Shown: piece by piece, positions 26,477-42,675 of the stretch
Layout of the letters: every line of letters starts with the position of its first letter
Numbering within the stretch: the first letter of the stretch is position 1
From: Acidimicrobiia bacterium
GTDB lineage: Bacteria; Actinomycetota; Acidimicrobiia; Spongiisociales; ZC4RG35
Direction of reading: 5' to 3'
DNA length: 47,514 nucleotides
Assembly: GCA_033720975.1 (NCBI GenBank)
Contig: JAWWBL010000002.1
Location: 1 to 47,514, forward strand
The notes under the pieces: generated by a model
What the model was told of the DNA's origin: nothing
Seen by the model: only the letters and a program-made list of their open reading frames with translations
The model's database searches: none
Made by a program: the position numbers and the translations under genes

Positions 26477-26737
26477 TTGAATGATTTTCCGTTCCTGTTT
26501 CTCACCCGGGCTGGTTGTCATCTGTGTGAGGATGCGTGGCCGGTGGTGAGGGCTGCGGCCAAACGAGCCAGAGTGCGGATAGAAGCAGTCGACATCGAGC
26601 AGCGCGATGACCTGCTCTCGAGGTTCGTTTTGAGGATTCCGGTGGTGCTGGCGCCTACAGGCCGCGTTCTGGCAGAAGGTCGTATCGATGACCGACGGTC
26701 TCTGGCCAGGGCGATGAAGGACTCAAGCCCGGGTTAG
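26477..26737 (+). CDS. Glutaredoxin-like (thioredoxin-fold, DUF836-type) small protein
   Basis: 86 aa, TTG start. LFLTRAGCHLCEDA CxxC motif and later RIPVV, as in glutaredoxin-2-like proteins. The 3' end overlaps the convergent cytochrome c gene by 4 nt. Confidence 0.6.
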   Translation: MNDFPFLFLTRAGCHLCEDAWPVVRAAAKRARVRIEAVDIEQRDDLLSRFVLRIPVVLAPTGRVLAEGRIDDRRSLARAMKDSSPG

Positions 26738-27756
26738 CCGACTGGTGGCGGGGAGACCTTGGCCTCCTCGTCACCTTCGACCGGCATCTCGTCGGTTCCC
26801 CCGTCACCGGCGGTGTCGTCAGCGGGCGCTTCGACCAGGCCGCAGTCGACAACGGCTGTCTCAGGGTCTTCTCCACCGAACCGCACCCGTTCGAATGCTG
26901 CAACAGCGGCTATCTGCTCCTCCGTGAGGCTGGCAGCGAAGGCTGGCATTCCACCCCGGACCGTCTTGTTGGTGTCTCCGTAGGTTCCTCCTGCAAAGCC
27001 TGGAGAACCGAGTGTCACCCATTCGATGTGGTCGGTGCATGCTCCAAACGTGGTCAAGACCCCGGTCAGCGCCGGGAAGTTCCCGGCACCCTGACCGCTA
27101 CCCCCGTGGCAACCCGCGCAGTTGACACCGGCGACGGCTCCGCCTCCATATATCTCCTGACCGAGGGCTATGAAGTCCTGCCCTCCGCCTCCTACCGCCT
27201 GACCGGTGAATGCCGATCCGTCGCAGTTCACGATGTCACCCGTGACCACGTCGGCTCGCAACTCGGTTCCCTCGCCGCACGCTCCGGTGGTCGAGCCGCC
27301 CAAGGCGAACAAGGCGAACAAGGGAGCTATGAACAGGACGGAGGCGAGCCACCGCGGCATGCGGAAGTTGGTGCGCTCTCTGATGCCCGCTGTGGGGACC
27401 GTGATCACGTCCGGGAGGTTGACTGCTTCTGCTGCCGTCACCTCCGGAGGCACCGGGGCCCTTCCCACGGCCGCGGGTGTCGGGTCGGAAACGGCGGGAG
27501 TTGGCGCTGGTGCCGGTGCGGCGGATGGTGTGGGCATCTCCACTGTCTCTTCATGATCCGGTGATTCGGCCTCGGCCGGGGCGGGCTGTACTTGGCTCGC
27601 TGGCGACGGAGTGTCGAGAGGTGCTCCGCCGGCCCAGGCGGAGAGGATGTCCTCGACGCTTGCCCCCGTCTCGGCGGCTCGAGCCTCAGCCGAGCGTTGT
27701 GTGAGCGACTCGGGAATTCCAAGAGCTGCGGCGGCGGCGCTGAGGACATCGCTCAT
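26734..27756 (-). CDS. Membrane-anchored class I monohaem cytochrome c with conserved cytoplasmic N-terminal module
   Basis: From ATG 27756 (MSDVLSAAAAALGIPESL...): Pro/Ala-rich linker, TM helix, CAGCHGG haem motif, GGMPAF Met ligand, acidic tail. Confidence 0.8.
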   Translation of the reverse strand: MSDVLSAAAAALGIPESLTQRSAEARAAETGASVEDILSAWAGGAPLDTPSPASQVQPAPAEAESPDHEETVEMPTPSAAPAPAPTPAVSDPTPAAVGRAPVPPEVTAAEAVNLPDVITVPTAGIRERTNFRMPRWLASVLFIAPLFALFALGGSTTGACGEGTELRADVVTGDIVNCDGSAFTGQAVGGGGQDFIALGQEIYGGGAVAGVNCAGCHGGSGQGAGNFPALTGVLTTFGACTDHIEWVTLGSPGFAGGTYGDTNKTVRGGMPAFAASLTEEQIAAVAAFERVRFGGEDPETAVVDCGLVEAPADDTAGDGGTDEMPVEGDEEAKVSPPPVG

Positions 27757-27757
27757 G

Positions 27758-28507
27758 TCAGTTCCCATCGCTCTGGGATCGTGATAGATACTCGACGAGA
27801 GCCGACAAATCCTGGGGTGACAGAGAATGGGCCGGGTGGGTGCCGAGGCCGCCGACGATCGCCTCCAACTGGCCCGAGGTCAGCCTTGCCCCAACGTTCG
27901 CCAGATCGGGGCCAAACCTTCGTGTGCCCAACACCTGGTTCGAGTCGTTGAGCGTGACGTCTCCCAGGCCCACATCCGCGACGACAGGTCTCACCATCTG
28001 GGTGTGACATGCGGCACATCCAAGGCTCAGGTAGATGTCTCTGCCCTCGAGCGCCGTCTCGGAGTACGAGATCGCGCTCGTCCGGGCGCCTGGCTCGTCA
28101 GCGAGCGATGCCGGCCCGACGAGGCCTATCAAGGCGATGACTGCGAAGAGCCCGATCGCGCCCACCAGCACACCGACCGGATTGTCTTTTACCCCCACAA
28201 GGACAGGCGGCTTGTACCGGCCGACGGGGATCGGTGCCTCAGGCTGGGGGGTGTCCGGGACGGGGATGTCGATCACGGGAGCCGTGGTGACAGGTTCGGG
28301 ATCCGCAGCAGCCTCGTCCTCTTCGGGAGCCGTGGCTGCCGGTGAAGGCTCCTGTGTTGTCGCCGGCGGCGGCGCCCCGCCAGCCCAGGCGGAGAGGATT
28401 TCGTCGAGGCTCGCCCCGGTTTCGGCGGCGCGAGCTTCGGCAGATCGTTGGGTCAAGGACTCTGGTATGCCAAGGGCGGCGGCAGCGGCGCTGACCAGAT
28501 CACTCAT
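27758..28507 (-). CDS. CcoO-like monohaem cytochrome c (cbb3 oxidase subunit II homologue) with the same N-terminal module
   Basis: From ATG 28507 (MSDLVSAAAAALGIPESL...): TM helix, LEGRDIYLSLGCAACHTQMVRP and GTRRFGPDLANVG as in CcoO. Overlaps the upstream gene by 8 nt. Confidence 0.75.
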   Translation of the reverse strand: MSDLVSAAAAALGIPESLTQRSAEARAAETGASLDEILSAWAGGAPPPATTQEPSPAATAPEEDEAAADPEPVTTAPVIDIPVPDTPQPEAPIPVGRYKPPVLVGVKDNPVGVLVGAIGLFAVIALIGLVGPASLADEPGARTSAISYSETALEGRDIYLSLGCAACHTQMVRPVVADVGLGDVTLNDSNQVLGTRRFGPDLANVGARLTSGQLEAIVGGLGTHPAHSLSPQDLSALVEYLSRSQSDGN

Positions 28508-29975
28508 CGTCGACCCCCTTGGAGACGAGCAGTTCCTGTGTCGTGGCCTTCCCGCTGGTGATGGTGCCGAGGACGACGGACGCGTAGGCGAGGTGACCGA
28601 GAAGAGTGACGATTGCAAACAACGCACCGAGAAGCAGAAGGGTGTCCGCGGTAGCGCCCACGCCCGCGCCCCATCCTTCGCCAAAGTCGGCGTAGGCCGC
28701 GGAGTTACTGCCGGCCGTCCACGAATAACCCGTCACCGCACCTGCGGTCGCGAGTGTCACCAAAGTGCCCACAGAACCGACGAGTGTGTACCTGACAAAG
28801 GACCGGACCCGATCACCGGAGTGAATCTCCCGGCCGACAAGCCGAGGAAGAGCCGACAGTGACGTGGCGGCTACGAGCAGGGCCCCAACCCCTGCCATCC
28901 AGGCGATTTCGATTCCCTCCCAGAATGACGTGAGAGCGGTCACAGCCGCTGCGGACCGGAAACCGGCGACAGCTGCAAGGGCCGCAACGATCGCGGCCAA
29001 GTAGAGACCGATGACGCCGGCACGTACCCCGTGGTTAGTCCCAAGATCGCCCCACGACCCCTCGAGGGTCAAAGAGACATTGGCGGCGTTTGCAAGTGCG
29101 GCCACGGGAAGCGCGAGTCCCAGTGCCGCAACGACCCCGGATATCCAATCTGGCCCCGGGCCGAATGTCAGTTGAGCCAGGCCCCACCACACGGAGGCGA
29201 AGCCCAGAGACCAAAGACCGACAAGGGCGAGCTGTCGGCTCGCAAGCGGAGCATCGAGCTCCTTGACCACCGCGTAGTAGAGAAGCCCAGTTCCCAGCGT
29301 GAGCAGCACCATCGTGACCATTCCGCCCGACACGAACATGTCGACGTATGCGACCTGGACCGCCTCGAGAAGGGGCAGATGGCCCACCAGGTTGGCCAGG
29401 AAGAGAAGAGGCATCCAGACCGTCCCGGCGATGACGAACCAGACTGTGACATAGCTGCGTGGCTCAGTCCTGACAGCGATCGTTCGAAGGGCTGTCAGCG
29501 CGGGAATGGACAATGTGCCCAGCATGGGGATGTCGAGCCACCACGGAAGACCAAAGGGCTGCCGGCCGGAGCCAAAGCCAAAACCTATCGCCACGACGCC
29601 GGCCGTCACTATGCCAGCCATGCCCAACAAGCCCAGACGGGCCAGGCCGGTGGAGGAAAGTCGGGCCCCGGTGAGCCGAGGGAGCACGTAGTAGACGCCA
29701 CCGACTAGTGAGATCACACCAAAGCCGATCACCAGGGAGAGGTTGGCCATCGGTTCCACGCGGCCGAAGGAGACGGGGATCAGGTCCCCGAACCTCAGCG
29801 CCACCAGTGACAAAACCGAGAGGAGGCTGCCCAATATGAGAAAGACTGCACCAACCACGAAGTGGCTGACGGCTAACCGATCTTCGCCGGCTCCTCCGCC
29901 GAGCAGCGTTCGGATGTCAGTTGTCTCGGTCTCGGCCAACGGTCTCCCCGCGGATGATGGGACGGCGGGGAGCAT
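28500..29975 (-). CDS. CcoN-fold (haem-copper oxidase subunit I-like) membrane protein lacking the canonical His ligands
   Basis: 491 aa, multi-TM. Segments SFGRVEPMANLSLVIGFG, GLLYYAVVKE and FGPGPDW parallel CcoN signatures, but only 5 His are present and none is in an HH or HxH arrangement. Confidence 0.65.
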   Translation of the reverse strand: MLPAVPSSAGRPLAETETTDIRTLLGGGAGEDRLAVSHFVVGAVFLILGSLLSVLSLVALRFGDLIPVSFGRVEPMANLSLVIGFGVISLVGGVYYVLPRLTGARLSSTGLARLGLLGMAGIVTAGVVAIGFGFGSGRQPFGLPWWLDIPMLGTLSIPALTALRTIAVRTEPRSYVTVWFVIAGTVWMPLLFLANLVGHLPLLEAVQVAYVDMFVSGGMVTMVLLTLGTGLLYYAVVKELDAPLASRQLALVGLWSLGFASVWWGLAQLTFGPGPDWISGVVAALGLALPVAALANAANVSLTLEGSWGDLGTNHGVRAGVIGLYLAAIVAALAAVAGFRSAAAVTALTSFWEGIEIAWMAGVGALLVAATSLSALPRLVGREIHSGDRVRSFVRYTLVGSVGTLVTLATAGAVTGYSWTAGSNSAAYADFGEGWGAGVGATADTLLLLGALFAIVTLLGHLAYASVVLGTITSGKATTQELLVSKGVDDE

Positions 29976-30110
29976 AACTTGTCGGTGGATCGAACCTCAT
30001 TACGACCAGACCGCAAGCGCATCCGGGCAGCGACGGGTTGCCGCCGCGAGTCGTTCGTGTGGTAGAAACGCTCCTACAAGCAAACCGACCCGGGCCACTA
30101 CCAAGGAAAC

Positions 30111-30740
30111 ATGTACCGCCTCGCGGAACTCACCGACAGCCGACGAAAGCTCATTGGTGCGACCCTGCTCGTTTTGGGGCTCGTTGGGCTGGCTCTTGCA
30201 GTGTTTTGGATCCATTGGTCTTCGTACCCCGAGACAGAGCTCGTTGACGGGGTAGCGGTGCCGTACGTGGTGGATCACTTCAACTGGTTCCCTCGCGGAG
30301 CTTTGTGGAAGGGGATCGGCTACTTGATCGCGGGTGGCGCCGCGACCTTCGCAATGATCGGAGCTGCATTCCTATGGGTCCTGAATCAGAAGATGACATG
30401 GGCCCGCGCCACGATCGCCGCGATGATCGCCTGGTTTGCTCTCGTTTTCTTCTTTGGCATTGTCCCGTCAGAATGGCTCAACTTCGCACAGACGGACCTC
30501 GAATGGGGCAACGATCCGGCCATCACGATTCCTCCGTTCCTCGTGCTTGGCAACGAAGTCTCCCTCAGTTGGGCGGCGATCAAGGACTCGATCTCGATGG
30601 GATATCACCTGGTCATGCTCGGAGTGGCAGGGGCCCTCGCCATCGGGATCCAGAAGATGAAGGACGGACGGCCTGCCCACAAACAGCCTGACGCGCTCAC
30701 TTCTCCCTACGGCAGGCCTTTGGTGAAGGGCGAGCGCTGA
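30111..30740 (+). CDS. Multi-pass membrane protein, first gene of the Rieske/cytochrome b operon
   Basis: 209 aa, AAGGAA upstream of the ATG, 4-5 hydrophobic segments. Its stop overlaps the start of the ferredoxin-type gene. Confidence 0.6.
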   Translation: MYRLAELTDSRRKLIGATLLVLGLVGLALAVFWIHWSSYPETELVDGVAVPYVVDHFNWFPRGALWKGIGYLIAGGAATFAMIGAAFLWVLNQKMTWARATIAAMIAWFALVFFFGIVPSEWLNFAQTDLEWGNDPAITIPPFLVLGNEVSLSWAAIKDSISMGYHLVMLGVAGALAIGIQKMKDGRPAHKQPDALTSPYGRPLVKGER

Positions 30741-31189
30741 TGCCTAAGGGAGTCGTCGATGAGACGCCGCCGATCCGCGATGACTATCAGCTCGCCCTCG
30801 TGGAGGGTGACTACTTCAAGGACAAGCTCAGGCCAAAGCAGTTCCTCCACATCGACCAATCGGAGTGCATCCTTTGCGAAGGGTGTGTGGACATTTGTCC
30901 TTGGAAGTGCATTCACTACCTGTCGCTTGACGCCATAGACGAAGCAGTCAACGTCGACCATCCGGCCGAGGACGGTCAGAACCTCGGGTTCTTCATCGTT
31001 GACGAAGACGAGTGCACACGCTGTGCGCTCTGCATCGACCGGTGCCCGACCAATGTCATCACGCTGGGCAAGTTCGAGGGCTCTCTCGCGGATCAAGCCG
31101 GACAATTGGGTCTTGACCGCCGGCCGTGGGACTTCGACACAGGACAGCGTGACTTCAAGAACGGTTACTCGTACGGTATGCGGTGGTAG
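30740..31189 (+). CDS. 2x[4Fe-4S] ferredoxin-type protein
   Basis: 149 aa with two CxxCxxCxxxCP motifs (CILCEGCVDICP, CTRCALCIDRCP) and no TM segment. Confidence 0.8.
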   Translation: MPKGVVDETPPIRDDYQLALVEGDYFKDKLRPKQFLHIDQSECILCEGCVDICPWKCIHYLSLDAIDEAVNVDHPAEDGQNLGFFIVDEDECTRCALCIDRCPTNVITLGKFEGSLADQAGQLGLDRRPWDFDTGQRDFKNGYSYGMRW

Positions 31190-31201
31190 GGCGAGGTAGG
31201 A

Positions 31202-31990
31202 ATGGCTAACGGAAACGACAAGACCTCTCTCCGCGAGAGGATCGGCGAGAAGGTCGGAGAGACGACCGAGAAATTGTGGAAGTCTCAACTCGCCGAAGCG
31301 ATTCTGCGTCCCGGCTCACCGTTCAAGCAGGGCTATTCGGACAGCCCGCGCAACCGCTCATATGTCGTCATGAACAACGTGCTCTATCACCTCCACCCGG
31401 TCAAGGTGAAGCGTCACGGCGTCAAGCTCTCCTACACCCTCTGCCTCGGCGGGCTGAGTTTCTTCTTGTTCATCCTCTTGACGATCACGGGCATCTTCCT
31501 GATGTTCTATTACACACCTACCGCCGAGTTGGCCTATGCCGACATCGAACGGCTCTCGACGGATGTTGCCTTCGGGTCGCTGGTCAGGAACCTCCACCGC
31601 TGGGGCGCCCATCTCATGGTCCTGTCGGTCTTCCTGCACATGAGCCGGGTCTTCTACCACGGCGCCTACAAACCACCTCGAGAGTTCAACTGGGTCATTG
31701 GCGTGATCCTTCTCTTCCTCACGCTGCTGCTGTCATTCTCGGGCTACCTACTCCCCTGGGACCAGCTGGCCTTGTGGGCCGTGACAGTCGGAACCAACAT
31801 GGCCGGGTTCGTCCCTGTCGTCGGGTCCCAGGTGAAGTTCTGGTTCCTGGCAGGCGTGGAGGTGAGCGGCGCGACGCTGCTTCGCTTCTATGTGCTCCAC
31901 GTTCTCGCGTTCCCCTTCATCATCGTGATATTCATGGCAGTCCACTTCTGGCGTGTCCGCAAGGACGGCGGGATATCCGGGCCTCTTTAA
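31202..31990 (+). CDS. Cytochrome b6-type protein (N-terminal four-helix half of cytochrome b)
   Basis: 262 aa. Haem ligand pairs in [11 protein letters not shown] and VLHV...[17 protein letters not shown] (LPWGQ-like), and TLCLGG matching the YCLGG haem-ci Cys context. Confidence 0.85.
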
Positions 31991-32000
31991 GGAACATCGA

Positions 32001-32951
32001 ATGGTTGAGATTCCAGAAGACCTGTTGAGGAGATCGGCCGAGGCCAAGGCCAAGGCCCTTGGCGTCCCGGTTGAAGACGTCTTGGCCGAGATGAAAGGGG
32101 AGGGCCCGCCGGTCGAGGTCCCACAACCCGAGCCGGTTGCAAAGCCGGCGGCCGGTGAGTCGACGGACGAAGAGATGCCGGTCGAAGAGGCCGGGACGGT
32201 CTCGTCACTTGAAGAGCCGGAGTCAAAGGGCGCCGGCTCCGAGCCTGACATGACCCCTGAGCCTGCTGATCCTGGGGATGTCGAAGCCTCCGAGACGGAG
32301 CCCGCATCCTCTGTAGCGACGATGGAGGCCCCGCCCCCGGCCGGCGACGGCAATGGCTCTGGAAACGGCAAGGTGGCGACTTCGGTCACGCCGCGACCGA
32401 CCGCCAGCCCCGCAGGCCTGCCCGAAGGGGTCAGGACCCAGCGGCTGCTGACCGTCGTCAAAGCTCGGGCGATTCAGGACGTCAAGACCGAGCCGCAGGA
32501 CAAGGTCAACACTTGGCCTCACCTGATGCTGATGGAGTTCGGCGCGCTGCTTCTCATAACGGGGCTCTTGATCATCATGTCGGTCGTCATCCACTCGCCC
32601 CTCCTCGACCCGGCCAATGTCAACGCGACCCCGAACCCGTCCAAAGCGCCCTGGTACTTCCTGGGGCTCCAGGAGCTTCTGTCGTACTTCGATCCGCAGA
32701 TCGCGGGGGTGACGATCCCGACCATCACTGGGATGATCGGCTTCATGATGGTCCCCTTCGTCGACAAGAACCCGTCCAACCGCCCATCGGATCGGAAATT
32801 CGCCATCGTGTTGTACACGATCTTCCTGGCCGGCTCGGCGACGCTCACGATCTTCGGGGTTTTGTTCCGGGGCAAGGGTTTCAACTTCTCTTATCCGTGG
32901 AAGGACGGGATCTTCTTCGATGACTTGAAAGACTGGGTGCACTTCGAGTGA
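32001..32951 (+). CDS. Subunit IV-type protein (C-terminal half of cytochrome b) with N-terminal module and acidic linker
   Basis: From ATG 32001 (MVEIPEDLLRRSAEAKAKALGVPVEDVLAEM...): about 150-aa acidic/Pro-rich linker, then three TM helices with SKAPWYFLGLQELL (PEWY-type motif). Confidence 0.8.
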   Translation: MVEIPEDLLRRSAEAKAKALGVPVEDVLAEMKGEGPPVEVPQPEPVAKPAAGESTDEEMPVEEAGTVSSLEEPESKGAGSEPDMTPEPADPGDVEASETEPASSVATMEAPPPAGDGNGSGNGKVATSVTPRPTASPAGLPEGVRTQRLLTVVKARAIQDVKTEPQDKVNTWPHLMLMEFGALLLITGLLIIMSVVIHSPLLDPANVNATPNPSKAPWYFLGLQELLSYFDPQIAGVTIPTITGMIGFMMVPFVDKNPSNRPSDRKFAIVLYTIFLAGSATLTIFGVLFRGKGFNFSYPWKDGIFFDDLKDWVHFE

Positions 32952-33826
32952 CGTTCACAAACACGATCCTGATCGCCGTCGCCCTTTTTGCCATCCTCGC
33001 CGCGGCTGGTGCCTTCACGATTGCCTTCCGCCGCGCCAGGAGCGAGCGGCCCTCCGATCCGACCGACGGGGTTTCTGCCGAGACCATTAAGGCAGACCGG
33101 TCGATGGAGGGGGTCGAGGTCGTCGCCGTGGAGCCCGAGCCCGAGGCTGACGTCGTCCAGTCGGTCGAGGAGGGCGACGAGGAGCCGCAGCTGGAGCCGG
33201 CGGGCGTCGGCGTTGCCGTCATCGAGGAACAGCGGATTGTCGAAGTGACCCCTGAAGAGGGCGGCGTGACCCGCAGACAGTTCTTCAACAGGGCGATCAC
33301 CGCAACTTTCGGATCGTTCATGGGGCTGATGGGCCTGTATTCACTCGTCTTCACCTGGCCGAAGCTCTCGGGCGGGTTCGGGACTGACGTCGACGCAGGT
33401 GAGCTCGGCGAGGTTCAGGGCTCGGTGTTCGCTGCCGACGGGTCGATCCTGCCGCTGTTCGTCCCGGAGGCGAGGGCATACGTGGTTCCCTCCCCGACGA
33501 ACCTCTCGAAGCAGTTCGAGGGTCGGAGGGTGGAGGCCGGAGGGCTCATGGCGCTGTTCCAAAGATGCGTTCACCTGGGTTGCCGTGTCCCGTGGTGCGG
33601 GCCGTCCCAGGGATTCGAATGCCCGTGCCACGGTTCGAAGTACAACTCGATTGGCGAGTACTTCGCCGGGCCCGCTCCCAGAAACCTCGACCGTTTCGAG
33701 GTCGAAGTCGTCGGTGGCCGATTCATCATCAAGACCGGCTCGATCGTCGAGACTCCGCGGGCTTCGGCGCTCTCATCGGCGTATCCGAGGGGGCCGAGTT
33801 GTATTGGCGCGACCGCTGAGGCTTAG
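32948..33826 (+). CDS. Rieske [2Fe-2S] protein
   Basis: 292 aa, GTG start overlapping the previous stop. CVHLGC and CPCHGS cluster motifs, plus an internal twin-arginine motif TRRQFFNRAI after an N-terminal TM helix and acidic linker. Confidence 0.85.
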   Translation: MTFTNTILIAVALFAILAAAGAFTIAFRRARSERPSDPTDGVSAETIKADRSMEGVEVVAVEPEPEADVVQSVEEGDEEPQLEPAGVGVAVIEEQRIVEVTPEEGGVTRRQFFNRAITATFGSFMGLMGLYSLVFTWPKLSGGFGTDVDAGELGEVQGSVFAADGSILPLFVPEARAYVVPSPTNLSKQFEGRRVEAGGLMALFQRCVHLGCRVPWCGPSQGFECPCHGSKYNSIGEYFAGPAPRNLDRFEVEVVGGRFIIKTGSIVETPRASALSSAYPRGPSCIGATAEA

Positions 33827-33829
33827 AGC

Positions 33830-35518
33830 GTGACCTCGAACATCATCACAGTTCTGGCCATCGTCGCCGGGATCACCTGGCTTGGGGTTCTCCTGGTGGC
33901 GGCGATCCGGAACCGCGGGAGCGAAGAGGTCCCTTCCAACATTCGCCCAGGTATCGATGACCAGCAGCTTGAGACACGGCGCCTGGAGTCCGGCCAGAAG
34001 GCGGCCATCGCCGCGTCGGCTTTCCTGGCCGTCTCTCTCCCTCTCTATTTCCTCAGCGAGCCGAGCCGGCAAGAAGGGTTTGTCGAGGAGTTTGCACATG
34101 CCTCTGAGGAGCGCGGAGAGCATCTGGTCGAGGAGTTCGCCTGCTTCTCGTGCCACGGCCCTCTCGGAGCTGGCGGCTCTGCCTCGTTCGTCGAGAAGCG
34201 GTCCGGTGTCACCGTGTCCTGGGAGGCGCCCGCTCTCAACGACGTCCTCTACCGATACGACGAGGACGAGCTCAACTTCTGGATCACCTTCGGCCGTGGG
34301 AACACCCCCATGCCCGCTTGGGGGCTCGCCGGCGGTGGCCCCCTCAATGAGGCTCAGGTCGTTGACATCGTCAACTACCTGAAGACGATCCAGATCCCGC
34401 AACAGGAAGCTGCCGCCAAGGCAGCCTCCCAGGTCGATATTCAGATCTCGCGCTTGAACAACGCCGAAGCGACGGTCGAAGAGGCGATCCTCAACCAGCG
34501 CCAGGTTCTCGCCGAGATAGCCCAGGCGCCGGCCGACGCACTGTTCGTTGGGCCCCTGGCTGTTCGCGCCCGGGATCTTCTCGACGCTGCCGCCACCGGA
34601 ATCGACACCGACGACGACGGCCTCTCGGATGCGGTCGAGGCCGAGCTGTCGTTGATATCCGCTGAGGCCTATGACTACTTCCAGGGGATCGAGCCGGTCA
34701 CCCTCGATCCCGAGATTGCCGACAACGACCTGCTCGTATCGGCAATGGCACAGCTCGAGGAGGGGGCGGATCAGGACCCGATCTTGGGTCAGTACCTAGC
34801 TGCCGTCGAAGCCATTCTCGAAGGCCAGGACCTGACGAGCGATAGCGATGGTGACGGGATCTCCGATGAGGCAGAGGCGGCCATTTCGGGCCAGTTGGCC
34901 GAGGCTTCCCGTGCGACGATCCCGGCCGGGATAGCGGTGGTGAGTCTGAGCCCGACCAGCACGGAGTCAGTGCCCGACGTGTCCGACAGGGCCACTGCCA
35001 CCCGTCTCGTCGGCGGGCTCGAGTCAGTTGCCATAAACACATCCGTTGCCGCGGAGAACTTCGACAAGCTCTTCAACCAAGAATCTGCCGGGCTCACTTT
35101 CCTGCTCGACGCCCAGCGGGCCAGGGCGTGGCATGTCGACATCGCAGGGGTGGCTGATTCGATGGGAGTCGGTGAGGAGGAGGCCGAGAGGGCAGTGGCG
35201 CTCTTCAACGCAAACTGCGCCCGCTGCCACACGGCCGGTTTCAGCGCAGGCGTGCCTTACACCCAGGAGATCGGATCGGGTGGGTTCGGCCCGGCGCTGT
35301 GGGATGGCCGGCCCGTCGTCCAGTTCGGGGAAGCCGCCGATCCCGAGGAGGACCTCCTCATCCAATTCCTGATAAGAGGCTCGGAGGCACAGAAGCCTTA
35401 CGGCCTCAATGGGTTCGGCTCGGGGCGGATGCCCGCATTCGGGGCGGTCCTTTCCCAGGAGGACATCGCGCTGCTTGCCCTGTACCTTCGTAGTGGCAAC
35501 TTGAGCGGAGTTGAGTAG
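33830..35518 (+). CDS. Membrane-anchored dihaem cytochrome c with large inter-domain insertion
   Basis: 562 aa, GTG start, N-terminal TM. CFSCH (aa 105-109) with TPMPAW, and CARCH (aa 463-467) with GRMPAF. About 260 aa separate the two haem domains. Confidence 0.8.
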   Translation: MTSNIITVLAIVAGITWLGVLLVAAIRNRGSEEVPSNIRPGIDDQQLETRRLESGQKAAIAASAFLAVSLPLYFLSEPSRQEGFVEEFAHASEERGEHLVEEFACFSCHGPLGAGGSASFVEKRSGVTVSWEAPALNDVLYRYDEDELNFWITFGRGNTPMPAWGLAGGGPLNEAQVVDIVNYLKTIQIPQQEAAAKAASQVDIQISRLNNAEATVEEAILNQRQVLAEIAQAPADALFVGPLAVRARDLLDAAATGIDTDDDGLSDAVEAELSLISAEAYDYFQGIEPVTLDPEIADNDLLVSAMAQLEEGADQDPILGQYLAAVEAILEGQDLTSDSDGDGISDEAEAAISGQLAEASRATIPAGIAVVSLSPTSTESVPDVSDRATATRLVGGLESVAINTSVAAENFDKLFNQESAGLTFLLDAQRARAWHVDIAGVADSMGVGEEEAERAVALFNANCARCHTAGFSAGVPYTQEIGSGGFGPALWDGRPVVQFGEAADPEEDLLIQFLIRGSEAQKPYGLNGFGSGRMPAFGAVLSQEDIALLALYLRSGNLSGVE

Positions 35519-35520
35519 GG

Positions 35521-35877
35521 ATGTTCAGAGAGTTCTTCAGATCGCTGCTCTCAGCGAACCTGTTCGTCACCGGTATCGTGCTGACGCTCGCCGCCGTGCT
35601 TCTGTTCTACGGATCGATCTACCTGTTCAACCACACGAATCTGGGCCGTCGACTGGCCCTCCTGGTCACCGGCGCCTCCATCTTCGGGTGGATGACCATC
35701 ACATCGCTGCTGTTCGTCATCTACGCGCCCCGTGGCCCGAAGCCCGACAACATCGAAGGTCTCAACGCCTTCGAAATCCGCGTGATCCCGTTGACCTTCC
35801 TCCTGGTCTCTTTGGTCCTCTTTCTCGTTTTCGTCGTCGCACTCCACCAATACGAGTCGACGCGAGAACCCGACTAG
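35521..35877 (+). CDS. Small three-TM membrane protein, last gene of the Rieske/cytochrome b operon
   Basis: 118-aa ORF starting 2 nt after the cytochrome c stop, with three hydrophobic segments. Confidence 0.55.
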   Translation: MFREFFRSLLSANLFVTGIVLTLAAVLLFYGSIYLFNHTNLGRRLALLVTGASIFGWMTITSLLFVIYAPRGPKPDNIEGLNAFEIRVIPLTFLLVSLVLFLVFVVALHQYESTREPD

Positions 35878-39505: not shown

Positions 39506-40114
39506 CTATCCGTAATAGCTGAGGATCTGAAGCTCGGTTGAGAGGTCGACCTGCCGCACTGCGACCCCGTCGGGCACGGTGACGCGAGCAGGCGCGAAAT
39601 TGAGAATCGAAGCGATGCCGGCCGATATCAGCGACTCGGTGACGGACTGCGCGGCCGTGGCCGGCACGGCCAGGATGGCCATGTCGAACCGATGCTTCCC
39701 CGCATCGGAAGTCATGGCACTCACATCTGAGACCCTCACACTTCCGACGGTTTCTCCGATCCGGTCCGGGTCGATGTCATACAGGGCGACGACGTCGAAG
39801 CCTCTCTTGGCCAGCCCCGAGTAGCGGGCGAGCGCGGTTCCGAGGTTGCCGGCGCCGACGATCGCCACCCTCCTTCGATGTTCGATCCCGAGCTCGCGCC
39901 GTATCCGGTCCCGCAGCGCCGGCACCGAGTAACCCACACCGCGGGTTCCCTGGAACCCCAGGTCGGACAGGTCTCGCCGTACGTTGGCCGCGTTCACGCC
40001 TGCTGAGTCGGCTAGAGCATCAGACGAAACCGTTTCGCTTTGCCCCTCGACCTCTTCGAGCAGTCGCAGGTATCGAGGCAAGCGTGAAACCGTGGCTCGT
40101 GACAGGTCGCTCAT
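39506..40114 (-). CDS. rex: Redox-sensing transcriptional repressor Rex
   Basis: 202 aa. N-terminal winged helix TVSRLPRYLRLL, GFQGTRGVGY, Rossmann VAIVGAGNLG, C-terminal LNFAP. Confidence 0.9.
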   Translation of the reverse strand: MSDLSRATVSRLPRYLRLLEEVEGQSETVSSDALADSAGVNAANVRRDLSDLGFQGTRGVGYSVPALRDRIRRELGIEHRRRVAIVGAGNLGTALARYSGLAKRGFDVVALYDIDPDRIGETVGSVRVSDVSAMTSDAGKHRFDMAILAVPATAAQSVTESLISAGIASILNFAPARVTVPDGVAVRQVDLSTELQILSYYG

Positions 40115-40131
40115 TGTGAAATACTGTACAA
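40114..40131. promoter_or_regulatory. Rex operator (ROP)-like site at the rex start
   Basis: TTGTGAAATACTGTACAA vs ROP consensus TTGTGAAnnnnTTCACAA (2 mismatches in the right half). It abuts the rex ATG in the divergent rex / geranylgeranyl reductase region. Confidence 0.5.
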
Positions 40132-42657: not shown

Positions 42658-42675
42658 TTGCGAATTAGTTCACAA
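42658..42675. promoter_or_regulatory. Rex operator (ROP) upstream of nuoA
   Basis: TTGCGAATTAGTTCACAA, one mismatch to TTGTGAAnnnnTTCACAA, ending 27 nt upstream of the nuoA GTG. An extra TTGCGAA half-site lies at 42639-42645. Confidence 0.6.

What the first reader, a model, noticed from the sequence alone, without database searches (positions are those of the whole stretch)
27758..29975. CcoN homologue with none of the six histidine metal ligands, paired with a CcoO-like cytochrome c lacking the canonical Met ligand
The 491-aa protein parallels CcoN segment by segment. The alignment is by eye against my recollection of Pseudomonas stutzeri CcoN:
- SFGRVEPMANLSLVIGFG vs SFGRLRPLHTNAVIFAFG
- YVTVWF..LLFLANLV vs YVGNWF..AILHVVNNL
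- MFVSGGMV..GLLYYAVVKE vs WWYGHNAV..GIMYYFVPKQ
- WWGLAQLTFGPGPDW vs WAGPHHLHYTALPDW
- FWEGIEIAWMAG vs DWTIGHVHAGALG

At each haem b, haem b3 or CuB histidine, and at the cross-linked Tyr, this protein has a non-ligand residue (A, F, S, A/Q, I, I). The whole protein has only five His (VSHF, VGHL, TNHG, EIHS, LGHL), and none is in an HH or HxH arrangement.

The partner protein overlaps it by 8 nt and keeps the CcoO hallmarks LEGRDIYLSLGCAACHTQMVRP and GTRRFGPDL. It has no Met after TQMVRP, so the MPSY-type axial Met is absent.

Both ORFs are intact and tightly coupled, which argues against pseudogenes. It suggests an oxidase scaffold kept for a non-oxidase role, such as an assembly platform, cytochrome c dock or ion pathway.
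Basis: partly seen in the sequence, partly recalled or inferred. Interest (0 to 1): 0.85.

Follow-up and report, generated by a model that had tools for sequence, protein, structure and literature searches.

The report
Cofactor-less cbb3 oxidase look-alike
An Acidimicrobiia genome carries a well-conserved copy of the catalytic subunit of a cbb3 oxygen reductase that has lost every haem and copper ligand, so it cannot be the oxidase that databases call it; it most likely works as a membrane scaffold for two cytochromes c attached to an unusual cytochrome b6-type complex.

Summary
The 491-aa protein (28500-29975, minus strand; here N*) is a real CcoN/COX1 homologue:
- Pfam COX1 E=5e-18 and TIGR00780 E=3e-28.
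- AlphaFold pLDDT 90, with TM-score 0.82-0.89 to solved CcoN.

HMMER alignment to solved CcoN puts A, F, S, A, Q, I, I at the six His ligands and the cross-linked Tyr.

The loss is old and maintained.
- 163 family members have no His at five ligand columns, and 52 further full-length copies carry one stray His among them.
- dN/dS is 0.06-0.08, the same as for the neighbouring Rieske and cytochrome c genes.

The CcoO-like partner (O*) keeps CxxCH and has no Met.

N*, O* and a one-haem CcoP-like protein (P*) lie back to back with a b6-type Rieske/cytochrome b cluster. That cluster also encodes a ferredoxin and two unknown membrane proteins. The pairing held in all 75 testable loci anchored on the neighbouring gene, and in relatives down to 33% identity.

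O*, P* and subunit IV share a private N-terminal motif.

Best reading: a dead-oxidase scaffold and c-haem relay module of a b6c supercomplex. I found no prior description. Databases name it cbb3 oxidase.

The parts
28500..29975 (-). N*: CcoN/COX1-fold membrane protein with no haem b, haem b3 or CuB ligands and no cross-link Tyr. 491 aa from the ATG; probably 479 aa from the TTG at 29939.
   Evidence: Homology. Ligand columns. AlphaFold pLDDT 90.4 and pTM 0.90. Foldseek TM 0.82-0.89 to CcoN of 3mk7, 9g83, 8smr and 6xkw. dN/dS 0.06-0.19.
27758..28507 (-). O*: CcoO(FixO)-like mono-haem cytochrome c. It has a roughly 100-aa cytoplasmic N-terminal extension, one TM helix and CAACH. It has no Met ligand, but an invariant His in G-x-H-P. 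It overlaps N* by 8 nt.
   Evidence: Orthologue alignments.
26734..27768 (-). P*: CcoP-like membrane-anchored cytochrome c with a single CxxCH (CAGCH) and a GGMPAF Met motif. The likely start is the ATG at 27756.
   Evidence: Alignment.
28371..28507 (-). N-terminal shared motif of O* (MSDLVSAAAAALGIPESLTQRSAEARAAETGASLDEILSAWAGG). It is a DNA direct repeat of the P* copy.
   Evidence: Motif HMM E=4e-23. 137-nt repeat at 80% identity.
27620..27756 (-). N-terminal shared motif of P*.
32004..32108 (+). The same motif at the N-terminus of the cytochrome b C-terminal subunit (subunit IV): IPEDLLRRSAEAKAKALGVPVEDVLAEMKG.
   Evidence: An HMM built from P* copies alone hits it at E=1.3e-8. It is the only other hit among 438 six-frame segments of the window. 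The same three-protein pattern is seen in the other loci wherever all three genes lie on the contig.
29976..30110 (.). Divergent intergenic region between N* and the 209-aa membrane protein gene. It is presumably a shared promoter region.
   Evidence: No Rex-box-like site was found in it.
30111..30740 (+). M209: conserved 4-TM protein of unknown family, always divergent from N*.
   Evidence: No Pfam, NCBIfam or PDB match. 75 of 75 testable loci anchored on it carry N* upstream.
30740..31189 (+). 2x[4Fe-4S] ferredoxin-like protein, about 90% identical among loci.
31202..31990 (+). Cytochrome b6-type subunit. Its Cys81 aligns with the haem ci/cn Cys35 of b6.
31953..32951 (+). Subunit IV (cytochrome b C-terminal part) with the N-terminal motif and an acidic linker. 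The likely start is the ATG at 32001.
32948..33826 (+). Rieske iron-sulfur subunit.
33830..35518 (+). Membrane-anchored di-haem cytochrome c with TSP3 repeats between the haem domains.
35521..35877 (+). X118: conserved small membrane protein that closes the cluster.

Best explanation
N* is a pseudo-oxidase. It is a CcoN-fold, 12-or-more-helix membrane protein that descends from a cbb3-type haem-copper oxidase and binds no haem b, haem b3 or CuB. It therefore cannot reduce O2 or NO.

What it keeps is the CcoN framework. It is co-translated with two single-helix cytochromes c:
- O*, with one haem c, probably His/His in this clade.
- P*, with one haem c, His/Met.

The N*O*P* module is encoded back to back with an unusual b6-type Rieske/cytochrome b complex, whose genes are:
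- M209, an unknown membrane protein;
- a 2x[4Fe-4S] ferredoxin;
- cytochrome b6 carrying the haem-ci Cys;
- subunit IV;
- the Rieske protein;
- a di-haem cytochrome c;
- X118, a small membrane protein.

Most likely N*O*P* is a fixed part of that complex, or is docked to it. N* would act as the membrane scaffold that places two extra c haems on the outer face, next to the complex's own di-haem cytochrome c. Electrons leaving the Rieske/cytochrome c branch would then be relayed to the real terminal oxidase (aa3 type) or to other acceptors.

The cytoplasmic N-terminal motif shared by O*, P* and subunit IV would tie the two halves together or bind one common partner.

Shown:
- homology and fold;
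- absence of all ligands;
- purifying selection;
- strict synteny;
- the shared motif;
- haem-c motifs and the invariant His.

Inferred:
- absence of any cofactor in N*;
- His/His ligation;
- physical association with the b6c complex;
- direction and purpose of electron flow.
For: 1. HCO membership and C-family fold.

2. Every ligand is replaced. The loss is universal in the family.
- 163 members have 0 His at the H60, H257, H258, H345 and H347 columns and 0 Tyr at the Y251 column.
- 12 canonical CcoN have His at all five of those columns.
- 52 more full-length copies from metagenomes show the same, apart from one stray His.

3. Purifying selection. N* has dN/dS 0.06-0.08 at dS 0.43-0.61. The comparable pair gives Rieske 0.05 and cytochrome c 0.08.

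4. The scaffold is retained, with no sign of a new site.
- Conserved polar and aromatic residues of N* (R72, Y96, R100, T165, R169, E171, W179, Y233/234, S246, W255, W277, N299, T303, T349, R378, W419) are the same residues in canonical CcoN.
- No new conserved His, Cys, Met or acidic cluster exists.
- The residues that replace the ligands vary across the wider family.

5. Gene order is N-O-P with overlapping stop and start codons, as in ccoNOP.

6. Synteny with the b6c cluster.
- All 10 genes keep their order in 16 loci.
- Relatives at 41%, 36%, 35% and 33% identity have the same neighbours; the 33% one is an N-O fusion.
- Reciprocal test: of 80 loci anchored on M209, all 75 with more than about 300 bp upstream carry N* divergently.

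7. The shared N-terminal motif is found only in O*, P* and subunit IV, in the window and in every locus where those genes are on the contig.

8. O* has CxxCH plus an invariant His in 44 of 44 complete copies. Distant O* keep S-x-M-P-S-F.

9. Precedent: bc1-cbb3 supercomplexes exist in P. aeruginosa (PMC10556555) and R. capsulatus (PMC7876108).

10. A relative's locus has haem a synthesis genes (COX15/CtaA and UbiA/CtaB) just downstream. This is consistent with a separate aa3-type oxidase.
Against: - No biochemical or expression data exist.
- Physical association with the b6c complex rests only on gene linkage and a shared motif.
- In one complete-genome-sized contig, about 8 kb of unrelated genes separate the two halves. 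Adjacency is therefore not obligatory.
- The b6c cluster already has its own di-haem cytochrome c, so it is unclear why two more c haems are needed.
- I could not inspect model coordinates. Whether the former haem pockets are filled or open is unknown.
- A conserved Gln at the former Ca2+-ligand Glu position (117 of 163) and the highly conserved O* loop LNDSNQVLGTRRFGPDL hint that something is still bound at the N*/O* interface.
- No terminal oxidase lies in the window, so the proposed acceptor is not identified.
Confidence: 0.55

Rival explanations
1. N*O*P* is a free-standing membrane cytochrome c complex. It is co-regulated with the b6c complex but not bound to it, and works as a membrane-anchored electron shuttle between complex III and terminal reductases. 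N* serves only as its anchor.
For: - The two gene sets are separate, divergent operons.
- They can be about 8 kb apart.
- The haem-c motifs are intact.
Against: - O*, P* and subunit IV share a private cytoplasmic motif that is found in no other protein of the loci.
- Co-occurrence was complete in 75 of 75 testable loci.
Confidence: 0.2
2. N* has acquired a new activity in the old cofactor cavity. Examples would be a menaquinol-binding site feeding the low-potential His/His haem of O* (an ACIII-like quinol:cytochrome c route), or an ion or proton pathway.
For: - Met is replaced by His in O* in this clade, which would lower the haem potential (the effect on potential is general knowledge).
- Gln is conserved at the former Ca2+-Glu position.
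- The O* loop facing N* is strongly conserved.
- N*-specific conserved residues exist: H38, Y95, W146, R247, W352, W435 and E481.
Against: - The residues at the former ligand positions are not conserved across the wider ligand-less family.
- No new polar cluster appears inside the helices.
- Distant clades keep a Met-ligated O*, so a low-potential haem is not general to the family.
Confidence: 0.12
3. N* is an assembly or maturation factor, for example a chaperone or platform for c-type cytochromes or for the real oxidase, rather than a permanent subunit.
For: - One distant relative lies next to the ResB/CcsA cytochrome c maturation genes.
- Another lies next to CtaA/CtaB.
Against: - Those neighbours are not conserved across the family.
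- N* is translationally coupled to O* and P*, and is fused to O* in a whole clade. That argues for a stable 1:1 complex.
Confidence: 0.06
4. N* still binds haem and/or a metal through non-His ligands and is a divergent but active oxidase or NO reductase.
For: - The fold is fully retained.
- Tyr is common at the H207 and H347 columns.
Against: - All six His and the Tyr cross-link partner are lost at once.
- The replacements are mostly Ala, Ile, Val and Gln, and they vary between clades.
- To my knowledge no HCO works without these ligands.
Confidence: 0.04
5. The genes are decaying relics (pseudogenes), or the similarity is an alignment artefact.
For: None beyond the loss of ligands.
Against: - E-values of 1e-18 to 1e-28.
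- TM-score 0.82-0.89.
- dN/dS 0.06-0.19.
- More than 200 intact copies, at 28-83% identity to the window protein, are in the alignments.
Confidence: 0.01

Closest known systems
cbb3-type cytochrome c oxidase CcoNOP (C-family haem-copper oxidase; P. stutzeri 3MK7)
   Same: - Closest sequence family and closest fold for N*.
- Gene order N-O-P with overlapping genes.
- O* matches FixO/CcoO through the TM helix, CxxCH and the GxxRxGPDL loop.
- P* gives a weak CcoP match.
   Different: - N* has no haem b, haem b3 or CuB ligands, no cross-link Tyr, and Gln instead of the Ca2+-binding Glu.
- O* is shortened after the GPDL loop and has His where CcoO has Met.
- P* has one haem instead of two, and no FixP_N domain was detected.
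- O* and P* carry N-terminal cytoplasmic extensions of about 100 and about 150 aa.
- No ccoQ or ccoGHIS genes were recognised among the ORFs I looked at in the window.
- Scores are far below the equivalog cut-offs: 99 against 583 bits for ccoN, and 44 against 201 for ccoO.
bc1-cbb3 respiratory supercomplexes (P. aeruginosa 8SMR, PMC10556555; R. capsulatus 6XKW, PMC7876108)
   Same: A Rieske/cytochrome b complex is coupled to a CcoNOP-type module, with c-type haems bridging the two.
   Different: - There the cbb3 part is the working O2 reductase and the association has been shown by cryo-EM.
- Here the CcoN part is dead and the association is only inferred from gene linkage and a shared motif.
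- The partner is a b6-type split cytochrome b with a ferredoxin gene.
Actinobacterial bcc-aa3 supercomplex (QcrCAB-CtaCDEF; Mycobacterium, Corynebacterium)
   Same: It is from the same phylum. A built-in di-haem cytochrome c replaces soluble cytochrome c, so electron hand-over depends on fixed protein-protein contact.
   Different: - The cytochrome b here is closer to b6 (E=3e-47) than to QcrB (E about 1e-22).
- The associated HCO homologue is of the C family and has no cofactor ligands.
Catalytically dead homologues kept as structural subunits of respiratory complexes, such as the Core 1/Core 2 proteins of mitochondrial bc1, which are related to the matrix processing peptidase (general knowledge, not tested here)
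   Same: An enzyme fold is kept under selection after loss of its active site, inside an electron-transport assembly.
   Different: To my knowledge the dead subunit there is not the redox core of another respiratory enzyme.
cNOR (NorBC)
   Same: It is an HCO subunit I homologue paired with a CcoO-like mono-haem cytochrome c. Predicted-fold TM-score is 0.72-0.76.
   Different: NorB keeps all His ligands and binds FeB. N* is closer to CcoN than to NorB.

Membership tests
Haem-copper oxidase superfamily, subunit I (Pfam COX1) | Sequence match to the COX1 profile above the gathering score | tested here: met
   65.7 bits against a cut-off of 34.8, covering residues 34-433.
Haem-copper oxidase superfamily, subunit I (Pfam COX1) | 12-helix subunit I fold | tested here: met
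   AlphaFold pLDDT 90.4. TM-score 0.82-0.89 to CcoN and about 0.7 to ba3, aa3 and NOR subunit I.
cbb3 oxidase CcoN (TIGR00780 equivalog) | Score above the equivalog cut-off | tested here: not met
   99 bits against a cut-off of 583.
cbb3 oxidase CcoN | Two His ligands of low-spin haem b (H60, H347) | tested here: not met
   A77 and I357. 0 of 163 family members have His at either column.
cbb3 oxidase CcoN | His ligand of high-spin haem b3 (H345) | tested here: not met
   I355. The column is Ile or Val in 147 of 163 members.
cbb3 oxidase CcoN | Three His ligands of CuB (H207, H257, H258) | tested here: not met
   F192, A267 and Q268. A-Q is seen in more than 140 of 163 members. The H207 column was judged from the pairwise alignments only.
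cbb3 oxidase CcoN | His-Tyr cross-link Tyr in helix 7 (Y251) | tested here: not met
   S261. The column is Ser, Ala or Gly in 157 of 163 members.
cbb3 oxidase CcoN | Glu ligand of the Ca2+ that bridges the haem propionates (E122; role recalled from the 3MK7 paper) | tested here: not met
   Q139. The column is Gln in 117 of 163 members and Glu in 12 of 12 canonical CcoN.
cbb3 oxidase operon | ccoN-ccoO-ccoP gene order | tested here: met
   N*, O* and P* are consecutive and overlapping. The order is conserved in all loci.
cbb3 oxidase | O2 reduction activity and haem b / Cu content | not testable with these tools
   This needs purified protein.
CcoO / FixO | FixO profile match, N-terminal TM helix and CxxCH | tested here: met
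   45.9 bits against a cut-off of 29.6, but only profile positions 8-114 of 219. CAACH is present.
CcoO / FixO | Met sixth ligand (the S-K-M-P-S-Y region) | tested here: not met
   No Met lies after the CxxCH region. An invariant His in G-x-H-[PGAV] takes its place. Distant O* keep S-x-M-P-S-F.
CcoO (TIGR00781 equivalog) | Score above the equivalog cut-off | tested here: not met
   43.9 bits against a cut-off of 200.65.
CcoP | Two CxxCH haem-binding domains and the FixP_N segment | tested here: not met
   One CxxCH. TIGR00782 gives 31.7 bits against a cut-off of 180. No FixP_N hit.
Respiratory III-IV-type supercomplex (bc-cbb3) | Physical association of the two complexes | not testable with these tools
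   Only indirect evidence exists: strict synteny and the shared motif.

The most novel reading that the evidence does not exclude
Acidimicrobiia carry a previously unrecognised respiratory assembly. In it, a b6-type Rieske/cytochrome b complex, with a bound ferredoxin and a haem ci, is permanently joined to a cofactor-free descendant of a cbb3 oxidase.

The dead oxidase has been re-used as the membrane scaffold for a two-haem cytochrome c wire. A private cytoplasmic motif on three subunits holds the assembly together or recruits a common partner.

The ligand-less CcoN-like proteins would then be a large, old family of haem-copper oxidase pseudoenzymes. They made up 61 of 89 representatives in my sample, in several deep clades. 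Genome annotation and metabolic reconstructions count them wrongly as high-affinity oxidases.
Probability: 0.45. Interest if true: 0.85.

Novelty: new variant of a known kind. Interest (0 to 1): 0.75.

Why it matters
1. Every named database copy I saw is called 'cbb3-type cytochrome c oxidase subunit I' or 'subunit I/II'. Metagenome papers credit Actinobacteria MAGs with cbb3 oxidases from such annotation (for example PMC8357290). Whether those particular MAG genes belong to this family was not checked. If the proteins bind no haem or copper, inferences of high-affinity, microaerobic respiration in Acidimicrobiia need re-examination.

2. A haem-copper oxidase core kept under strong selection after losing all of its redox centres would be an unusual pseudoenzyme. 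It would also be a natural experiment on what the subunit I scaffold does apart from catalysis.

3. Its strict pairing with a b6-type complex that has its own ferredoxin gene points to an undescribed supercomplex architecture in a widespread soil, marine and freshwater lineage.

Tried and rejected
- Pseudogene or relaxed selection: rejected by dN/dS and intact ORFs.
- Alignment artefact: rejected by HMM E-values and fold search.
- Rex control of the divergent promoter: no Rex-box-like site lies in 29976-30110. The count of hits in the window was below chance expectation, with the best ones at 40115 and 42659.
- Exact look-up of the window's own protein in the contig index found nothing.
- Profile search with the 46-aa N-terminal motif returned only short, contig-end fragments from Acidimicrobiia. 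It could not tell me whether other respiratory subunits carry the motif. An earlier attempt failed because the query was too short.
- No Pfam family covers the motif, M209 or X118. M209 has no relative in the PDB.
- Ten full-text literature searches found no description of ligand-less CcoN homologues. The best candidate paper was unrelated. This library misses most subscription journals, so absence is weak evidence.
- I could not inspect the cofactor pockets, because the structure tool returns confidence and secondary structure but no coordinates.
- The H207 column did not align well in the multiple alignments, so I rely on the pairwise HMMER alignments for it.
- The neighbour-joining tree is rough. 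I do not use it to claim a single loss event.
Full report
**What is there.**
Three consecutive, overlapping genes lie on the minus strand.
- N* spans 28500-29975 and is 491 aa from the ATG. Most orthologues, and the database copy P0001 (479 aa), start at the TTG at 29939.
- O* spans 27758-28507 and is 249 aa. Its ATG overlaps the N* stop by 8 nt.
- P* spans 26734-27768. Orthologues start at the MSD... Met at 27756.

The window is about 63% G+C. All named relatives come from Acidimicrobiia metagenome-assembled genomes.

N* is a genuine haem-copper oxidase subunit I homologue of the cbb3 (C) family.
- Pfam COX1 gives E=4.8e-18, above the gathering score.
- TIGR00780 ccoN gives E=2.9e-28 over residues 39-481, but only 99 bits against an equivalog cut-off of 583.
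- Solved CcoN chains match at E=2e-20 to 2e-15.
- An AlphaFold model built on 51 sequences has pLDDT 90.4 and pTM 0.90.
- That model matches CcoN of 3mk7, 9g83, 8smr and 6xkw at TM 0.82-0.89. A- and B-family oxidases and NOR come next, at about 0.7.

The HMMER alignments place non-ligand residues at every cofactor position. The P. stutzeri numbering is recalled from the 3MK7 work.

| CcoN position | N* residue |
|---|---|
| H60 | A77 |
| H207 | F192 |
| Y251 | S261 |
| H257 | A267 |
| H258 | Q268 |
| H345 | I355 |
| H347 | I357 |

The Glu that helps bind the Ca2+ between the haem propionates is Q139 in N*.

**The loss is ancient, general and maintained.**
- The word-index search found 379 homologues at E<=1e-5. 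The 120 listed were 59-83% identical to N*.
- In an alignment of 163 family members and 12 canonical CcoN representatives, no family member has His at the H60, H257, H258, H345 or H347 columns, and none has Tyr at the Y251 column. All 12 canonical sequences have His at the five columns, and 11 of 12 have the Tyr.
- Another 52 full-length, single-ORF copies recovered from metagenome loci show the same residues. One isolated His appears at the H347 column in L037.
- Nei-Gojobori dN/dS for N* is 0.06-0.08 in pairs where dS is unsaturated (0.43-0.61). In the comparable pair L014/L016, the neighbouring Rieske gene gives 0.05, the di-haem cytochrome c gene 0.08 and cytochrome b 0.06.
- These are not pseudogenes.

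**A larger family.**
An exhaustive HMMER search of 1.84 billion cluster representatives gave 629 hits. I aligned 88 near-full-length ones with N*.
- 61 of the 89 sequences have no His at any of the seven columns.
- 14 are canonical.
- 14 keep one or a few of the ligands.

The ligand-less sequences rank above the canonical ones and fall into several deep groups. One group is a clade of 610-750-aa N-O fusions, and one member carries a cupredoxin fusion. The neighbour-joining tree is too rough to count loss events.

**The partners.**
O* matches FixO/CcoO (E=6e-12) through the TM helix, CAACH, TQMVRP and the GTRRFGPDL loop, which correspond to CcoO residues 12-117.

All orthologues examined have an invariant His in a G-x-H-[PGAV] motif about ten residues before the C-terminal helix. 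This includes all 44 complete copies in the metagenome loci. More distant O* proteins, which are partners of equally ligand-less N*, keep the canonical S-x-M-P-S-F. The simplest reading is a Met-to-His switch, giving a His/His haem c in this clade. This is inference from sequence.

P* has a TM helix, one CxxCH, conserved Cys pairs and a G-M-P-A/G Met motif. It is only weakly CcoP-like.

**Context.**
Divergently transcribed from N*, 135 bp away, are seven genes.
- M209, a 209-aa 4-TM protein with no family.
- A 2x[4Fe-4S] ferredoxin.
- A cytochrome b closest to b6 (1q90_B, E=3e-47). Its Cys81 aligns with the haem ci/cn Cys35.
- Subunit IV.
- The Rieske protein.
- A membrane-anchored di-haem cytochrome c with TSP3 repeats.
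- X118, a 118-aa membrane protein.

All ten genes keep this order in 16 related loci. Relatives of N* at 41%, 36%, 35% and 33% identity have the same neighbours.

The reciprocal test was clean. Of 80 metagenome loci fetched with M209 as the only query, all 75 with more than about 300 bp upstream carry N* in the divergent position. In one 4.2-Mb contig the two halves are about 8 kb apart, and the haem a synthesis genes CtaA/CtaB lie just downstream of P*.

**A shared motif.**
O* and P* begin with nearly the same roughly 45 residues, MSD..SAAAAALGIPESLTQRSAEARAAETGAS.(E/D)(E/D)ILSAWAGG. At the DNA level this is a 137-nt direct repeat of 80% identity.

An HMM built only from P* copies hits three of the window's 438 six-frame segments: P* (2.6e-24), O* (4e-23) and the N-terminus of subunit IV (1.3e-8). 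Across all the earlier loci the motif occurs only in these three proteins. It occurs twice in subunit IV in some loci.

The motif sits before the TM helix. By analogy with CcoO and CcoP topology it is therefore cytoplasmic. No Pfam family covers it. It is the strongest hint that the two gene sets make one assembly or share one cytoplasmic partner. The adjacent ferredoxin is a candidate for that partner, but this is speculation.

**How it most likely works.**
Nearly every polar or aromatic residue conserved in N* is the same residue in canonical CcoN. No new conserved His, Cys, Met or acidic cluster appears. The residues that replaced the ligands differ between clades.

This argues that selection acts on the scaffold and its contacts, not on a new active site. 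I therefore read N* as a cofactor-free membrane platform that holds O* and P*. I read N*O*P* as a two-haem cytochrome c module belonging to, or docked on, the b6-type complex. The module would pass electrons on to a separate terminal oxidase.

bc1-cbb3 supercomplexes are an established precedent (PMC10556555, PMC7876108). A plausible history is a bc-cbb3 supercomplex whose oxidase core died while its cytochrome c arms stayed useful.

I put 0.55 on this. The main rivals are:
- a free-standing cytochrome c shuttle (0.2);
- a new quinol-binding or ion function in the old cavity (0.12);
- an assembly factor (0.06);
- a still-active enzyme with exotic ligands (0.04);
- gene decay (0.01).

**Known or new.**
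NCBIfam has no model for this family. The PDB has no closer relative than true CcoN. Every named database entry I saw calls it cbb3 oxidase subunit I or subunit I/II. Ten full-text searches found no description. The library lacks most subscription journals, so prior mention cannot be excluded. Papers on Actinobacteria MAGs credit them with cbb3 oxidases from such annotations (PMC8357290). I did not check whether those MAG genes belong to this family.

I class it as a new variant of a known kind: a haem-copper oxidase pseudoenzyme in a conserved respiratory gene cluster.

**Limits.**
- There is no biochemistry and there are no expression data.
- I had no access to model coordinates.
- The H207 column relies on pairwise alignments.
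- Taxonomic breadth is known only from MAG labels.
- No terminal oxidase is present in the window.

Noticed in passing
window 27620-27756, 28371-28507, 32004-32108: A roughly 40-aa N-terminal motif (consensus LGxPExLVxRSAEARAxATGxSVExVLAAWAGG) is shared by O*, P* and cytochrome b subunit IV, and by no other protein in the window or the related loci. No Pfam family covers it. Some loci have two copies in subunit IV.
   Followed up: yes
window 30111-35877: An unusual b6-type Rieske/cytochrome b cluster. A 2x[4Fe-4S] ferredoxin gene lies directly upstream of a cytochrome b6 that keeps the haem ci/cn cysteine (C81 aligns with Cys35 of 1q90_B). Two conserved membrane proteins of unknown family (M209, X118) flank the cluster. 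A ferredoxin next to a haem-ci cytochrome b recalls the proposed ferredoxin-to-haem-cn route in b6f.
   Followed up: partly
window 33830-35518: The di-haem cytochrome c of the cluster has bacterial thrombospondin type 3 (TSP3, Ca2+-binding) repeats between its two haem domains (Pfam PF18884, E=5.6e-6).
   Followed up: no
L023 5020-7104 (protein P0168): A distant ligand-less COX1-like protein (28% identity to N*) is fused to a cupredoxin domain. It sits next to a COX2 plus cytochrome c gene, the ResB/CcsA cytochrome c maturation genes and a ferredoxin. This is a different architecture of the same dead-oxidase theme.
   Followed up: no
L026 8001-10055 (protein P0213): A 684-aa N-O fusion keeps the equivalents of H60, H207 and H347 but lacks the H257/H258 pair and H345. 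It could bind haem b without a binuclear centre. It lies in a different, sigma-54-regulator context.
   Followed up: no
window 39506-40130 and 42659-42674: By eye, the ORF at 39506-40114 looks like a Rex-type redox-sensing repressor; I did not search this window ORF. In two related loci a Put_DNA-bind_N/CoA_binding gene sits right beside the cluster. Rex-box-like sites lie at 40115-40130, just upstream of that ORF (2 mismatches), and at 42659-42674 (1 mismatch). None lies in the N*/M209 divergent promoter. The total number of hits in the window was below chance expectation.
   Followed up: partly
L027 14021-15888: In a 4.2-Mb contig, the haem a synthesis genes (COX15/CtaA and UbiA/CtaB) lie about 2 kb downstream of the P* homologue. 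About 8 kb of unrelated genes separate the N-O fusion from the b6c cluster.
   Followed up: no
window 29939-29975: The 12 codons between the upstream ATG and the TTG start used by most orthologues encode MLPAVPSSAGRP. Several homologues carry a similar MLPPSQLxRGxRL extension, so the start site of N* is uncertain.
   Followed up: no
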